Origin: Ylistrum balloti
Taxonomy: Eukaryota
DNA length: 64,000 nt
Direction of reading: 5' to 3'
Assembly: GCF_031769215.1 (NCBI RefSeq)
Contig: NW_026782188.1
Span: forward strand, 1,364,001 to 1,428,000
Each line of letters begins with the position of its first letter. The stretch's first letter is position 1. The position numbers were made by a program. This document shows, piece after piece, positions 1 to 30,000 of the stretch.

Positions 1-3000
1 CATTCCCAAATGAAGTTTATTTATGAGACAGCACGAAAAACTAAGTGTATTTTCCAAACATCCTTATGCATTGACACTTCGCAAAAAGTACTGACTTTGT
101 AAACAATCTTCAAACGATGAATGTTTATTTATACCCATAGCTCATTCTGCCATCATTCCGTAATTGTTCATGTCTGTACATTTAGTGGAATTATTAATGA
201 AAATACCATCGAAGTGAGTGTTCTACTTCAGTATTACTTAAAACATGCCTCTTATTCATATCATCTATTAACAACACACATGGATTAAACAGGACTGTGC
301 ATACACGTTAACTAGAATAGGACATATGCATACACGCTGACTAAAACAGGACATCTGCAAACACGCTGACTAAAACAGGACACCCGCATTCACACTAATT
401 AAAGAGGACTTCTACAAGCGTGGTGACTACAATCAGACCTCTGTATACGCGGTGACTAAAACAGGACACCTACATACATACTGACTAAAACAGGACATCT
501 GCCTACACACTGACTAAAACAGGACACCTGTATACACACTGACTAAAACAGGACACCTGCATACACACTGAATAAAACAGGACAGCTGTATACACACTGA
601 CTAAAACAGAACATCTGTATACACACTGACTAAAACAGGACACCTGCATACATACTGACTAAAACAGGACACCTGCATACACACTGACTTAAACAGGACA
701 CCTGTATACACATTGACTAAAACAGAACATCTACATTCACACTGACTAAAACAGGAGACCTGCATACACACTGACTATAACGGAACATCTGTATACACAC
801 TGACTAAAACAGGAGACCTGCATACACACTGACTAAAACAGGACACCTGCATACGCGGTGAGTAAATCAGGACACCAGCATACACGTGGACTACGGCTGC
901 ATACCTACTTACTTTTGAACTAAATCTTGTGGACGCCTATTTTTATGAAAAGATTTAAGCTGTATACATACATACACGTGGTCAATTATTAATATTAAAC
1001 ACATGCAAACACTTGTTCTAAAACTTGACACTTGCACGGGACAAATCCATGCACATAGAACAAAACTAGACACCTCCATACACAAACACATAGACTATAG
1101 ATGGACAACTGTGTAATGTGGACTAGAGACACTTCCATACAAGTGGCCTAGAGATAGACGCTTCCATACAAGTGGGGTAGAGATGGACACTTGGACACCT
1201 CCATACATGTGGACTAGAGATAGACACATCCATACATGTGGACTAGAGATAGACACCTCCATACATGTGGACTAGCGATAGACACCTCCATACATGTGGA
1301 CTAGAGAGAGACACTTCCATACACATGGACTAGAGATGGACACCTCCATACATGTGGACTAGAGAGAGACACTTCCATACACATTAACTAGCGATAGACG
1401 CATCCATACATGTGGACTATAGATAGACACCTCCATACATGTGGACTAGAGATAGACACCTCCATACATGTGGACTATAGATAGACACCTCCATAAATGT
1501 GGACTAGAGATAGACTCCTCCATACACATGGACTAGAGATGGACACCTCCATACATGTGGACTAGAGAGAGACTCCTCCATAAATGTGGACTAGAGATGG
1601 AAACCTCCATACATGTGGACTAGAGATATACACCTCCATAAATGTGGACTAGAGATATACACCTCCATAAATGTGGACTAGAGATATACACCTCCATACA
1701 TGTGGACTAGAGATGGACACCTCCATACATGTGGACTAGAGATGGACACCTCCATACATGTGGACTAGAGATGGACTCCTCCATACATGTGGACTAGAGA
1801 TGGACACCTCCATACATGTGGACTAGAGATGGACACCTCCATACATGTGGACTAGAGATGGACACCTCCATACACGTGGACTAGAGATGGACACCTCCAT
1901 ACACGTGGACTAGAGATGGACACCTCCATACACATGGACTAGAGATGGACACCTCCATACATGTGGACTAGAGATGGACACCTCCATACATGTGGACTAG
2001 AGATGGACACCTCCATACATGTGGACTAGAGATGGACACCTCCATACATGTGGACTAGAGATGGACACCTCCATACACATGGACTAGAGATGGACACCTC
2101 CATACATGTGGACTAGAGATGGACACCTCCATACATGTGGACTAGAGATATACACCTCCATACATGTGGATGATGGACACCTCCATACACTGGACTAGAG
2201 ATGGACACCTCCATACATGTGGACTAGAGATGGACACCTCCATACATGTGGACTAGAGATGGACACCTCCATACACGTGGACTAGAGATGGACACCTCCA
2301 TACATGTGGACTAGAGATGGACACCTCCATACATGTGGACTAGAGATGGACACCTCCATACACGTGGGGTAGAGATGGACACCTCAATACATGTGGACTA
2401 GAGATAGACACCTCCATACATGTGGACTAGAGATGGACACCTCCATACATGTGGACTAGAGATGGACACCTCCATACATGTGGACTAGCGATAGACACCT
2501 CCATACATGTGGACTAAGATAGACACCTCCATACATGTGGACTAAGATAGACACCTCCATACATGTGGACTAAGATAGACATCTCCATACAAGTGGACTA
2601 GAGATGGACACCTCCATACATGTGGGGTAGCGATGGATTATTGCATGCGTGTGGATTACAGCTGAACGCGTTGCAAGATTAACATATAGTCACGAAAAGC
2701 ATATACAATTTCTAAAAACCGTCTCCTAGATTTCAAAATTCAGACTGTTTAATTTATTTTTTAGCTCTACTGTATCCATTTCTAAATGGGATTGATGCTT
2801 TCCACTGCTGTGTTGTGCTGTGCCATGCATAAGCTTTACATTAGGAAAACATGTCATTTTTAAAATTCTCCTCAGTCGCCACTAGGTTTCAAAACTTAAG
2901 TCTTCAAGATATCGTAGAAGTTCAAATCAAACGTATGGTAAAGTATATGTCATTATTTCGCTCTATGGTATGTTATCTTAAATTGTGTCTTTTGTACAAT

Positions 3001-27000: not shown

Positions 27001-30000
27001 TCCTACAGGTCCATTATCAGCACTTTTAGACTTTTGCTTATTGGAGAGAAGTTGTTTGTATATTTTAACATATTTAACCCCTGTGACCTAGAAAGTGGGT
27101 CAAGGTCTTTCATTTGAACAAACTTGGTAGCATGTCAACGATGCATCCTACAGGTCCATTATCAGCACTCTTGGACTTTTGCTTATTAAGAAGAAGTCGT
27201 TTGTATATTTTAATATATCTGACCCCTGTGACCTTGAAAGTGGGTCAAGGTCATTCATTTGAACAAACTTGGTAGCACTTCATCCCATCATCCTACAGGC
27301 CAAATATCAGCACTCTTAGACTTTTGCTTATTGAGAAGAAGTCGTTTGTATATTTTAACATATTTGACCCCTGTGACCTTGAAAGTAGGTCAAGGTCATT
27401 CATTTGGACAAACTGGGTAGCCCTTCATCCTAGTATGCTACAGACCCAATATCAGCATTATGAGCCCTTTGGTTGTTGAGAAGAAGTTGTTTGTATATTT
27501 AAACATATTTGACCCCTGTGACCTTGAAAGGGGGTCAAGGTCAATAATTTGAACAAACTTTGTAGGGCTCCATGCCAGCATGCTATGGGCCAAGTATTAG
27601 CCCTCTAGGCCTTCTAGTATTTGAGAAGTTTTTTGAATGAAAAGTTTACGGACGGCGCATGGCTGACGACGACGGACGAAGCACGATGGCTAAAGGTCAT
27701 CTCGACCCTTTGGGTCAGATGACCTAAAAACATACTGAATGTTCTCACATGACGGCATGACTAGAATACATACTGTATGTTCTCACATGACAAGAATACA
27801 TACTCTATGTTCTCACATGACTATAATACATACGGTATGGTCTCACATGACAGTATGACTAGAATACATACTGTATGTTCTCACATGACGGCATGACTAG
27901 AATACATACTGTATGGTCTCACATGACTATGATACATACTGTATGTTTTCACATGACAGTATGACTAGAATACATACTGTATGTTCTCACATGACAGTAT
28001 GACTAGAATACATACTGTATGTTCTCACATGACAGTATGACTAGAATACATACTGTATGTTCTCACATGACAGTATGACTAGAATACATACTGTATGTTC
28101 TCACACGACAGTATGACTAGAATACATACTGTATGGTCTCACATGACTATAATACATACTGTATGTTCTCACACGACAGTATGACTATAATACATACTGT
28201 AGATTCTCACACGACAGTATGACTAGAATACATACTGTAGGTTCTCACATGACAGTATGACTAGAATACATACTGTATGTTCTCACATGACTAGAATACA
28301 TACTGTATGTTCTCACATGACTAGAATACATACTGTATGTTCTCACATGACAGTATGACTAGAATACATACTGTATGGTCTCACATGACTATAATACATA
28401 CTGTATGTTCTCACATGACAGTATGACTAGAATACATACTGTATGGTCTCACATGACTATAATACATACTGTATGTTCTCACATGACAGTATGACTACAA
28501 TACATACTGTATGTTCTCACATGACTATAATACATACTGTATGTTCTCACATGACAGCATGACTATAATACATACTGTATGGTCTCACATGACTAGAATA
28601 CATACTGTATGTTCTCACATGACTAGAATACATACTGTATGTTCTCACATGACTAGAATACATACTGTATGTTCTCACATGACTAGAATACATACTGTAG
28701 ATTCTCACATGACAGTATGACTATAATACATACTGTACTGTAAGTAAATCAGATTGATTGTATTACTTGATGTGTATGTACCCCTTGGGAATTCTTACAT
28801 TCTAAAATATAATAATTGCCAGAACTATTAAAAAATTTGCGACCTAACGATTCTCTCATTCTTTTATCCCTTTGTCCAGCAACCAGTTCCTCATCCATTT
28901 CTTTTACTATTACACATGCTGCTGCTTCTTCTATGGACTGATAAACATGCCAGTTTATAGGCTATATAACAAATTGGACACCTACCTTGTATAGATTGGC
29001 TGGTGAATGGTGATGCCTTGTCCTCCACGGGTTGGTGAGCCAGCAGAATCCAGAATCTCTTCCAATATGCCTTTGGCTGCCAAAATAATGATAAACTTGT
29101 CTTACAACACATCAAAATGACATGATAACCATCACATTGAAAATTGTACAGAGAAACAGGACAGTATTATAACACTTTCTATTTCTTTATTCATAATGGA
29201 TAAACACTTGTGTTGGTTCCATTTTGATCATAAAATATTTTTGAGTCAGTTTTAACTATGTATGTCTTCTTTCTCCTGTATGTCCTATAACTGCTTGTTT
29301 TATATATAAACTACCGTGCACATTTGTTAACAAATGCTTAGAAAATATGCAAATTCACCCAATGTTCATTTCTAGAAGTACACATATTAGACACCTGTCA
29401 AATACTGAAAAAAACTGTCGTTGTGACAATGCAAATCAATCCTGATAGCCTATTTTATGTTTTGTCAGGTTTAAGGGAGGCAACTCTGATTCACGTTTTG
29501 CTTTAAAAATTGAAAAAAAGATTGTCATGTATAATTTAAAAACTGAAACAATATGTCAAGTATGACTATCATATCAAAGGATCAACATTAACACTGATAT
29601 CAACACTACAGTAGACTTTTACCAACACAGCTCTATAGTTTCTAAATACATGTAACAAAGAAATTCAACAACAGTCTATACCCATGTCCAGCTTTTTCTG
29701 CACAGTTATCATAAATATTTCATATAAGGCCAATTCATTTGGCTATTTGACACATGAGCCTGTATAACTAATCACACAATTTTCAATTCCAAAGTTTTCC
29801 CTGATCGAACACTGAACACTGGGAAACTTTCCCTGCAGCCTGTCTCACCTGTTTTAGAAGGTAGGCTGTTGATGCTGGAGCTTAGTATTTGTTTCTTGTA
29901 ATTCGTAGTGAATTTAAGACTGAGCAGTTTTCTGTAAGAGGGGCAAAATGCTCTGTGCAAATGTGCAAGCAATTCCTTATGTGTTTATTCAGTAAGTAAA

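What the first reader, a model, noticed from the sequence alone, without database searches (positions are those of the whole stretch)
1..28985. TALPID3 breaks off mid-protein; IRF2BP may sit on the same strand inside a >28-kb TALPID3 intron
Seen: the last TALPID3 exon (29076-28986) ends at a strong phase-2 donor (AG|GTAGG) after ~685 codons. I found no exon resembling the rest of TALPID3 between 28985 and 1. The nearby acceptors at 28937 and 28930 give a stop within a few codons and would need a ~50-nt intron. Established: vertebrate TALPID3 is ~1500 aa and its centrosome-targeting coiled coil follows this region. Inference: the gene continues beyond the left edge, so IRF2BP and its ~20-kb regulatory domain are nested on the same strand, a genomic-regulatory-block arrangement with TALPID3 as bystander. 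Alternatives are a truncated gene or a misjoin in the 22-28 kb satellites.
Basis: inference. Interest (0 to 1): 0.65.

Follow-up and report, generated by a model that had tools for sequence, protein, structure and literature searches.

The report
TALPID3 stops short before IRF2BP
Only the first third of the cilia gene TALPID3 is present here; after a block of tandem repeats comes a complete, separate regulator gene (IRF2BP) on the same strand, and this stretch alone cannot settle whether IRF2BP sits inside a giant TALPID3 intron.

Summary
Seven phase-consistent minus-strand exons (ATG 33701 to 28986; 682 codons + 2 nt) end at AAG|GTAGGT. Exons 4-6 match Pfam TALPID3 only at profile positions 23-246 of 1261. 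Of 952 ORFs scanned across the window on both strands, only those three match TALPID3. IRF2BP is an intact single-exon gene on the same strand (12215-10344).

Three new points:
- TIM9 lies upstream of TALPID3. The order TIM9-TALPID3-IRF2BP matches the timm9/talpid3/irf2bpl linkage reported in gar, so the neighbourhood is ancient and not a random misjoin.
- CpG o/e switches inside the repeat block. It is about 0.2 in TALPID3 exons and introns and in three other genes to the right. It is about 0.95 from the left edge to about 26.3 kb. A transcribed TALPID3 intron should not look like that.
- Weak strand skews hint at minus-strand transcription across IRF2BP's flanks.

My odds:
- IRF2BP nested in a TALPID3 intron longer than 29 kb: about 0.45
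- A real or assembly break in the 26.3-28.7 kb repeat block: about 0.35
- A genuinely short or split gene: about 0.08
- Hidden exons: about 0.03

The left flank of the scaffold, RNA junctions and long reads would decide. None of them was available.

The parts
32744..33708 (-). TALPID3 exon 1 (ATG at 33701; 319 codons + 1 nt; serine-rich, no Pfam family)
   Evidence: Acceptor ttttttag| and donor CCTG|GTAAAG read. Open frame. 0 Pfam families. The Atlas gave nothing usable.
31694..31902 (-). TALPID3 exon 2 (209 nt)
   Evidence: Splice sites and phase read. Its ORF 31649-31915 was among the 81 scanned and was not one of the 3 TALPID3 matches.
31329..31471 (-). TALPID3 exon 3 (143 nt)
   Evidence: Splice sites and phase read.
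30980..31154 (-). TALPID3 exon 4 (175 nt)
   Evidence: Pfam PF15324 profile 23-82, E 0.0028. Splice sites read.
30417..30629 (-). TALPID3 exon 5 (213 nt, coiled-coil-like)
   Evidence: Pfam PF15324 profile 81-158, E 2.5e-8, 32.7 bits against a cut-off of 27. No PDB relative.
30008..30266 (-). TALPID3 exon 6 (259 nt; donor A|GTGAGT)
   Evidence: Pfam PF15324 profile 187-246, E 5.4e-4. Splice sites read.
28986..29076 (-). TALPID3 exon 7, the last one seen (91 nt; ends in phase 2 at AAG|GTAGGT)
   Evidence: Read. In phase with exon 6. Its ORF alone gives 0 Pfam families. Read-through gives AGG TAG, which any consensus donor in this phase would do.
27730..28737 (.). 38-nt tandem array (about 29 copies), starting 249 nt downstream of exon 7
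   Evidence: TRF. Same family and orientation as 26346-26752. The consensus has no CpG.
26844..27729 (.). 145-nt array (5.3 copies) plus a 123-nt piece with 9 CpGs; a dispersed element that splits the 38-nt array
   Evidence: TRF. BLAST hits of the 145-nt array at about 39 kb and 60 kb. CpG cluster at 27649-27703.
26346..26752 (.). 38-nt tandem array, the other half
   Evidence: TRF and BLAST.
22460..26259 (.). 42-nt tandem array (about 90 copies) that keeps its two consensus CpGs up to its right end
   Evidence: TRF. Per-monomer CpG counts.
1..26259 (.). Domain that keeps its CpGs (o/e about 0.9-1.0 in unique DNA); inferred to be unmethylated in the germ line
   Evidence: Observed CpG, expected CpG, o/e: 2700-10340, 249, 260.1, 0.96; 12300-22400, 306, 329.3, 0.93; IRF2BP CDS, o/e 0.84; 1-286, 5, 7.0, 0.71.
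10344..12215 (-). IRF2BP, complete single-exon coding sequence (623 codons + stop)
   Evidence: Pfam: zinc finger PF11261 at 1-52/52 (2.3e-33); middle domain PF25457 (1.5e-62); C3HC4 PF25454 at 1-72/72 (7.3e-34). ATG confirmed.
287..2637 (.). Two 29-nt tandem arrays at the left end (287-893, 1093-2637)
   Evidence: TRF.
42466..43006 (-). TIM9-like gene upstream of TALPID3, same strand (two ORFs with Tim10/DDP matches)
   Evidence: Pfam zf-Tim10_DDP in 2 of 150 ORFs, best E 7.1e-8. ORF 42773-43006 hits only Tim9 chains in the PDB (human 2bsk_A 6.3e-8; yeast 6e-6) and no Tim10.

Best explanation
The window holds the 5' third of a real TALPID3 gene: exons 1-7, covering Pfam positions 23-246 of 1261. 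The last donor must splice onward. The next exon lies outside the window, most likely to the left. On that reading the intact IRF2BP gene and its >=26-kb CpG-rich domain sit on the sense strand inside a TALPID3 intron of more than 28,985 nt.

Shown:
- the exon chain
- the lack of further TALPID3-like coding sequence anywhere in the window
- the intact IRF2BP on the same strand
- the two-state CpG landscape
- TIM9 upstream of TALPID3

Inferred:
- that the gene goes on to the left
- that the IRF2BP domain is shielded from the transcription-coupled methylation that marks the rest of TALPID3
- that regulatory entanglement keeps the three genes together
For: 1. Exon 7 ends at a near-consensus donor in phase. 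No AATAAA or ATTAAA occurs on the minus strand until 27214, which is 1.77 kb downstream. So this is not a terminal exon.

2. The region reported as essential and conserved even in C. elegans is not encoded here. That is the coiled coil at human residues 531-571 (PMC4641851 and PMC7198521, passages). A working gene therefore needs more exons.

3. TALPID3 is matched by 3 of 952 ORFs in the whole window. All three are exons 4-6. Any further exons must lie outside.

4. The 12.3-22.4 kb stretch shows no excess of long minus-strand ORFs. There are 29 of >=50 aa against 24.1+-4.1 in shuffles, and the longest is 99 aa against 107+-18. It has no codon-usage outlier either: best 15.8 bits against 12.0 on the plus strand and 13.6 in other non-coding DNA.

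5. The window has no N, and every array is under 4 kb. Long reads would span such arrays; that last step is inference.

6. talpid3 and irf2bpl lie together between timm9 and dact1 in gar (PMC4236578, passages). The window has TIM9 > TALPID3 > IRF2BP, so the neighbours are genuine.

7. Both flanks of IRF2BP, read on the minus strand, show G>C (13 of 17 1-kb blocks, p=0.021) and T>A (14 of 17, p=0.005; against two control regions p=0.0008). The sign is the same as in known introns.
Against: 1. CpG o/e is 0.17 in TALPID3 introns (11 seen, 63.2 expected). It is 0.16-0.27 in the PNO1 and FG-GAP gene regions sampled (mainly introns). It is 0.93-0.96 in 2.7-10.3 kb and 12.3-22.4 kb (p=1.2e-12). The first 286 nt of the window also look undepleted (5 seen, 7.0 expected).

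2. In Ciona, methylation falls sharply at the ends of transcription units. DNA inserted into introns of methylated genes becomes methylated, except for about 1.8 kb around a promoter (PMC3827831, passages). A 26-kb unmethylated intron is therefore unexpected.

3. The six seen introns are 150-931 nt.

4. A same-strand guest means host transcripts must read through IRF2BP's poly(A) signals, which begin at 10332.

5. The skew evidence is weak. In known introns T>A is only 0.023+-0.020 (7 of 13 blocks). A long IRF2BP transcription unit would explain the skews as well.

6. No host exon is seen left of IRF2BP.
Confidence: 0.45

Rival explanations
1. Break at the repeat block. IRF2BP is TALPID3's downstream neighbour and not its guest. 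Exons 8 to the end are missing from this sequence because of a junction inside the 26.3-28.7 kb array/element block. The cause could be a deletion allele in the sequenced haplotype, a rearrangement in the lineage, or an assembly error.
For: - The switch from CpG-poor to CpG-rich DNA falls in this block, within about 2.7 kb of exon 7. A transcription unit that ends there would look like this (PMC3827831, passages).
- The next intron would otherwise be more than 30 times longer than any seen intron.
- Tandem arrays are good substrates for unequal exchange or collapse (established knowledge).
- The fish data show the two genes as neighbours. The passages I read do not say whether they are nested.
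Against: - TALPID3 is essential in vertebrates (passages), and exons 1-7 are intact.
- There is no N in the window, and all arrays are under 4 kb.
- The two 38-nt arrays are one array split by an inserted element. They are not two separate arrays.
- No remnant of 3' exons lies between the block and IRF2BP.
- Weak minus-strand skews run across the region.
Confidence: 0.35
2. The gene truly ends here or is split. A 683-residue N-terminal protein is made, with the stop right after exon 7 or in a tiny last exon. The conserved C-terminal part is lost or encoded elsewhere as its own gene.
For: - Read-through gives AGG TAG at once.
- The acceptors at 28937 and 28930 give stops after 2 and 12 codons.
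- CpG depletion is not seen beyond exon 7.
Against: - Any consensus donor in phase 2 gives an immediate stop, so the stop carries no information (sequence logic).
- The mini-introns would be only 48 and 55 nt.
- No poly(A) hexamer occurs for 1.77 kb.
- The conserved region is needed for localisation even in C. elegans (PMC7198521, passages).
Confidence: 0.08
3. Hidden exons. TALPID3 goes on in small or diverged exons between the repeat block and IRF2BP (12.3-22.4 kb) and ends before IRF2BP.
For: - Ten kb would be enough room at the exon density seen (2048 nt of coding sequence in 4.7 kb).
- Pfam sees only 3 of the 7 known exons when each is scanned alone.
Against: - 0 of 426 minus-strand ORFs >=22 aa match TALPID3.
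- ORF lengths equal those of shuffles.
- There is no codon-usage outlier.
- CpG o/e is 0.93, against 0.17-0.24 in known TALPID3 introns and exons.
Confidence: 0.03

Closest known systems
Vertebrate Timm9 - Talpid3 - Irf2bpl - Dact1 locus (PMC4236578, section 'Dact1 loci', passages read)
   Same: The same three genes are linked. In gar, talpid3 and irf2bpl lie between dact1 and timm9. Here TIM9 (42.5-43.0 kb), TALPID3 (33.7-29.0 kb) and IRF2BP (12.2-10.3 kb) follow each other on one strand.
   Different: No Dact gene is seen here; the paper's title calls Dact genes chordate-specific. The passages give neither the order of talpid3 and irf2bpl within the gar locus, nor gene orientation, nor whether the genes are nested. 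Most vertebrates have kept only one of the two genes at this locus.
Genomic regulatory blocks: a developmental target gene plus a bystander gene with long introns, for example Isl-Scaper (PMC3514665, passages)
   Same: A transcription regulator lies next to an unrelated housekeeping-type gene, and the linkage is kept over very long times. The two genes show contrasting CpG character.
   Different: Conserved non-coding elements and enhancers, which define a block, could not be tested. The bystander introns seen here are short (150-931 nt). The pair does not occur in the main text of that paper (0 hits for IRF2 and KIAA0586). Its supplements were closed.
Nested gene in a host intron, for example MAB21L1 in NBEA (recalled, not checked) or LRRTM genes in alpha-catenin genes (PMC3933685, search listing only)
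   Same: A compact, intron-poor gene with its own promoter would lie inside a long intron of a larger gene.
   Different: Here the guest would be on the same strand as the host, and no host exon is seen on the far side. Membership is therefore unproven.
Mosaic gene-body methylation of invertebrates (Ciona PMC3827831; oyster PMC4378273; passages)
   Same: CpG-poor and CpG-normal domains are sharply separated. The CpG-poor state covers the exons and introns of housekeeping-type genes.
   Different: Only the CpG footprint is seen here, not methylation itself. If the nested reading is right, a methylated gene would hold an unmethylated stretch of >=26 kb. Those passages do not describe such a case.

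Membership tests
TALPID3 / KIAA0586 (Pfam PF15324) | Significant match to the family profile | tested here: met
   Exon 5 alone scores 32.7 bits (cut-off 27), E 2.5e-8. Exons 4 and 6 score 16.0 and 18.4 bits at adjoining profile positions in the right order.
TALPID3 / KIAA0586 (Pfam PF15324) | Coverage of the whole family region (1261 profile positions) | tested here: not met
   Only positions 23-246 are matched. 3 of 952 ORFs in the window match, all of them exons 4-6.
TALPID3 / KIAA0586 (Pfam PF15324) | Highly conserved region with the essential coiled coil (human 531-571, chicken 497-530; needed for centrosome or basal-body localisation) | tested here: not met
   Literature passages. No ORF in the window matches later profile positions. 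That the coiled coil lies beyond position 246 is inference, because the profile could not be lined up with the human protein here.
TALPID3 / KIAA0586 (Pfam PF15324) | Linkage to TIMM9, as in vertebrates | tested here: met
   TIM9-like ORFs at 42466-43006. Vertebrate linkage from PMC4236578.
IRF2BP family | N-terminal IRF-2BP zinc finger, middle domain and C-terminal C3HC4 RING, in that order | tested here: met
   PF11261 at 1-52/52 (2.3e-33), PF25457 at 19-162/162 (1.5e-62), PF25454 at 1-72/72 (7.3e-34), at residues 24-75, 231-374 and 553-624 of one ORF.
Nested (intronic guest) gene | Host exons on both sides of the guest | tested here: inconclusive
   Host exons are seen only upstream (28986-33708). 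None lies between 1 and 10343. The left flank of the scaffold is not available.
Nested (intronic guest) gene | Host transcription runs through the guest | tested here: inconclusive
   Not testable directly without RNA data. Two indirect signs disagree: the CpG footprint is against it and the strand skews are weakly for it.
Genomic regulatory block | Linkage of target and bystander kept across distant animal groups | tested here: inconclusive
   This window plus gar and teleosts.
Genomic regulatory block | Conserved non-coding elements or enhancers for the target inside bystander introns | not testable with these tools
   No related eukaryotic genomes were at hand.
Mosaic gene-body methylation | Two-state CpG o/e, with depletion over whole transcription units | tested here: met
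   CpG o/e is 0.12-0.27 in TALPID3, TIM9, PNO1 and the FG-GAP gene, against 0.84-0.98 in the IRF2BP domain. The GpC control is about 0.9-1.0 in unique DNA on both sides (0.73 in the IRF2BP CDS). TpG+CpA is raised where CpG is low. Methylation itself was not measured.

The most novel reading that the evidence does not exclude
IRF2BP lives as an insulated island of >=26 kb, unmethylated in the germ line, on the sense strand inside an intron of a heavily gene-body-methylated TALPID3. The TIM9-TALPID3-IRF2BP block has been held together since before protostomes and deuterostomes split, because IRF2BP's regulatory DNA is entangled with TALPID3. That would make it a natural case of a transcribed host intron that escapes transcription-coupled methylation over tens of kilobases.
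Probability: 0.2. Interest if true: 0.6.

Novelty: new member of a known kind. Interest (0 to 1): 0.4.

Why it matters
If the nested reading is right, the locus has two uses:
- It is a compact invertebrate example of a target and bystander pair that is also linked in fish.
- It is a test case for how a guest gene's domain stays free of the methylation that follows transcription of its host.

If the break reading is right, the assembly or haplotype lacks two-thirds of a gene that is essential for cilia. Annotators need to know that.

Either way, two points stand on their own. TIM9-TALPID3-IRF2BP linkage is shared between this invertebrate-type genome and bony fishes. The CpG footprint also works as an independent check on gene-model extent.

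Tried and rejected
I switched to stop-to-stop ORFs.
- ORF-length statistics and a codon-usage log-odds scan trained on the window's own exons found nothing coding-like in 2.7-10.3 kb or 12.3-22.4 kb. The codon scan has low power: known exons score 2.1-46 bits in leave-one-out.
- Strand asymmetry of poly(A) hexamers was uninformative. In 12.3-22.4 kb, AATAAA occurs 16 times on the plus strand and 7 on the minus, but the TALPID3 region itself shows 2 against 7.
- The PDB has no relative of TALPID3 exon 5.
- The ESM Atlas gave nothing usable for TALPID3 exon 1 or for the 175-aa plus-strand ORF.
- Rfam at gathering scores and the tRNA scan found nothing in the window.
- A misjoin that brought unrelated loci together by chance is rejected, because the same genes are neighbours in gar.
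- Several Pfam hits among repeat-region ORFs look like artefacts of low-complexity repeat translations. I did not identify which ORFs gave them. Examples are Dzip-like_N in 6 of 150 ORFs, zf-CCCH_9 in 6 of 147, and zf-Tim10_DDP in 4 of 148 plus-strand ORFs.
- Yin et al. 2009 (PMC2741201) is not held.
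Full report
SCOPE AND LIMITS

The window has no N. It is about 35% G+C and carries spliced genes with invertebrate-type features. I did not take it for human.

The evidence is therefore limited to the window itself, Pfam, the PDB, the ESM Atlas and papers.

The joined protein was never built or searched. This leaves the short exon 7 without a family match of its own.

THE TALPID3 EXONS

Read, seven minus-strand exons fit together in phase:
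- E1 33708-32744, with an ATG at 33701 in good context
- E2 31902-31694
- E3 31471-31329
- E4 31154-30980
- E5 30629-30417
- E6 30266-30008
- E7 29076-28986

From the ATG they add up to 2048 nt, that is 682 codons plus 2 nt, with no in-frame stop. Exon 7 has the acceptor tttggcag| and the donor AAG|GTAGGT.

The immediate stop on read-through (AGG TAG) carries no information. Any consensus donor in this phase gives one.

They would give introns of 48 and 55 nt, and stops after 2 and 12 codons.

No AATAAA or ATTAAA follows on the minus strand until 27214.

HOW MUCH OF TALPID3 IS PRESENT

Pfam's TALPID3 model has 1261 positions. Exons 4, 5 and 6 match positions 23-82, 81-158 and 187-246, with E-values of 0.0028, 2.5e-8 and 5.4e-4.

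Exon 1 and exon 7's ORF give no family match. Exons 2 and 3 were among the 81 ORFs and were not among its 3 matches. Pfam therefore sees 3 of the 7 exons when each is scanned alone.

About four-fifths of the model is unaccounted for.

Papers place the essential coiled coil at human residues 531-571 and chicken residues 497-530. They say it mediates centrosomal localisation (PMC4641851, passages). It is encoded by the highly conserved mouse exons 11-12 (PMC6767539, passages). A homologous conserved region is needed for basal-body localisation even in C. elegans TALP-3 (PMC7198521, passages). That this region lies beyond profile position 246 is my inference.

SEARCH FOR THE REST OF THE GENE

I scanned stop-to-stop ORFs one by one against Pfam at E<=1.

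| Strand and region | Minimum length | ORFs | ORFs matching TALPID3 |
|---|---|---|---|
| Minus, 24-29166 | >=22 aa | 426 | 0 |
| Plus, 1-29.1 kb | >=40 aa | 147 | 0 |
| Minus, 29.2-42.1 kb | >=35 aa | 81 | 3 (exons 4-6) |
| Minus, 42.5-64 kb | >=35 aa | 150 | 0 |
| Plus, 29.1-64 kb | >=42 aa | 148 | 0 |

In total, 3 of 952 ORFs match.

Two caveats apply. Searches list 25 of 31 families. The unlisted six appear to be single-member hits with E above 0.15-0.19, judging by the sort order. Shorter ORFs were not scanned.

In 12.3-22.4 kb the minus strand has 29 ORFs of >=50 aa, against 24.1+-4.1 in 200 shuffles. Its longest ORF is 99 aa, against 107+-18. The TALPID3 region stands out by comparison: 7 ORFs of >=70 aa against 2.2+-1.4, and a longest ORF of 337 aa.

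A codon-usage scan gave no outlier. The best segment scored 15.8 bits on the minus strand, 12.0 on the plus strand and 13.6 in other non-coding DNA. Its power is low, since known exons score 2.1-46 bits in leave-one-out.

IRF2BP

One uninterrupted minus-strand frame (10347-12263) carries all three family domains at full length. The ATG is at 12215, giving 623 codons. The gene is intact.

THE REPEAT BLOCK

TRF finds four arrays:
- a 42-nt array at 22460-26259
- a 38-nt array at 26346-26752
- a 145-nt array at 26844-27606
- the same 38-nt family again at 27730-28737, starting 249 nt after exon 7

The 145-nt array has relatives at about 39 kb and 60 kb. It is followed by a 123-nt piece with 9 CpGs. 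It looks like a dispersed element inserted into one 38-nt array.

SURROUNDINGS AND SYNTENY

A TIM9-like gene lies upstream of TALPID3 on the same strand, at 42466-43006. Pfam zf-Tim10_DDP matches 2 of 150 ORFs. In the PDB only Tim9 chains are hit, with human 2bsk_A at 6.3e-8.

Further right lie a PNO1-like gene on the minus strand (KH_PNO1_2nd in 3 of 150 ORFs, best E 3e-16) and an FG-GAP gene on the plus strand.

A paper on Dact genes states that in gar talpid3 and irf2bpl lie between dact1 and timm9. It adds that in other vertebrates one or the other lies there (PMC4236578, passages). The window's order TIM9 > TALPID3 > IRF2BP is therefore an old neighbourhood. A chance misjoin of unrelated loci is very unlikely.

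I found no paper on this linkage in invertebrates:
- The search for IRF2BPL plus KIAA0586 found 3 papers, none on synteny to judge by their titles and abstract openings.
- In the search for IRF2BP with regulatory-block terms, none of the 15 listed papers mentions IRF2BP.
- The search for KIAA0586, TIMM9 and synteny found 18 papers.

Supplementary lists of conserved gene pairs, for example those of PMC3514665, were closed and may hold the pair.

THE CpG LANDSCAPE (NEW)

CpG observed/expected by region:

| Region | CpG o/e | CpG seen / expected |
|---|---|---|
| TALPID3 introns | 0.17 | 11 / 63.2 |
| TALPID3 exons | 0.24 | |
| TIM9 | 0.12 | |
| PNO1 region | 0.23-0.27 | |
| FG-GAP gene | 0.16-0.18 | |
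| 2.7-10.3 kb | 0.96 | 249 / 260.1 |
| IRF2BP coding sequence | 0.84 | |
| 12.3-22.4 kb | 0.93 | 306 / 329.3 |
| 1-286 | 0.71 | 5 / 7.0 |

TALPID3 introns against 12.3-22.4 kb give p=1.2e-12.

GpC is about 0.9-1.0 in unique DNA on both sides (0.73 in the IRF2BP coding sequence). TpG+CpA is higher where CpG is low.

The 42-nt array keeps its two consensus CpGs up to 26.26 kb. The 38-nt and 145-nt units carry none, so the switch lies somewhere in 26.3-28.7 kb.

This is the footprint expected of mosaic gene-body methylation. Such methylation is described for oyster (PMC4378273, passages). In Ciona it falls sharply at the ends of transcription units, and DNA placed in an intron of a methylated gene becomes methylated except around its promoter (PMC3827831, passages).

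Read this way, the 26 kb to the left of the block has not behaved like a TALPID3 intron in the germ line.

STRAND SKEWS

Known introns show G>C on their coding strand (0.079+-0.027; 10 of 13 blocks). They show at most a slight T>A (0.023+-0.020; 7 of 13 blocks).

IRF2BP's flanks, read on the minus strand, show:
- G>C of 0.034-0.054 (13 of 17 blocks, p=0.021)
- T>A of about 0.05 (14 of 17 blocks, p=0.005; against two control regions p=0.0008)

They are a weak hint of minus-strand transcription across the region. It could come from TALPID3 or from a long IRF2BP transcription unit.

WEIGHING

The gene must continue somewhere. It has a strong donor, the essential region is missing, and the exons are intact. 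The continuation is not in the window.

Long introns with guest genes are common. The sequence is gap-free with short arrays, and the neighbours are genuine.

The CpG switch and the jump from introns of 150-931 nt to one of more than 28,985 nt speak against it. They favour a junction in the repeat block, whether real or from assembly.

I put the odds at:
- nested: 0.45
- break: 0.35
- truly short or split gene: 0.08
- hidden exons: 0.03
- unknown: the remainder

COMPARISON AND NOVELTY

The arrangement resembles known target-and-bystander blocks and nested genes. The features that define them could not be tested or were not met: host exons on both sides, and conserved non-coding elements.

It is at most a new member of a known kind. 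The TIM9-TALPID3-IRF2BP linkage shared with fish and the CpG boundary are the useful new facts.

Noticed in passing
window 42466-43006 (minus), with TALPID3 at 28986-33708 and IRF2BP at 10344-12215: A TIM9-like gene lies directly upstream of TALPID3 on the same strand. The order TIM9 > TALPID3 > IRF2BP matches the timm9/talpid3/irf2bpl linkage described for gar (PMC4236578).
   Followed up: partly
window 1-64000; switch at about 26.3-28.7 kb: The CpG landscape has two states. CpG o/e is about 0.2 over four housekeeping-type genes on the right, and even the spacers between them reach only 0.44-0.50. It is about 0.95 over the whole IRF2BP side. Local CpG peaks at 34-35 kb, 44-45 kb and 52-53 kb may mark promoters.
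   Followed up: partly
window 48950-52820 (minus) and 52495-61679 (plus): A PNO1-like gene (KH_PNO1_2nd, 3 ORFs, best E 3e-16) and an FG-GAP repeat gene lie head to head near 52.3-52.9 kb. The FG-GAP hit has E 7.4e-4, and by eye the likely ORF is 60349-60522. I call this gene ITFG2-like from memory only. Their long first-exon ORFs overlap on opposite strands.
   Followed up: partly
window 13144-13668 (plus): A 175-aa open frame lies just upstream of IRF2BP on the other strand. It is longer than the 95th percentile (135 aa) of the longest ORF in 200 shuffles. It has no Pfam or Atlas match and may be chance in CpG-rich DNA.
   Followed up: partly
window 287-2637, 22460-28737, 36457-36977, 39053-39346, 48167-48840, 54175-54350, 57017-59096, 61780-62208, 62634-64000: The window is unusually rich in short-period tandem arrays (periods 21-145 nt). 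Some have extreme strand composition. IRF2BP's unique DNA has arrays on both sides.
   Followed up: no
window 22-28 kb and 62.6-64 kb (repeat-region ORFs): Several Pfam families were hit by multiple ORFs in the scans of these regions: Dzip-like_N, zf-CCCH_9, and zf-Tim10_DDP on the plus strand. The hits are probably spurious matches to translated tandem repeats. I did not identify which ORFs gave them. This is a caution for automatic annotation.
   Followed up: no
window 24666-24847: A 63-nt unit repeated 2.9 times at 100% identity sits inside the otherwise 79%-identical 42-nt array.
   Followed up: no
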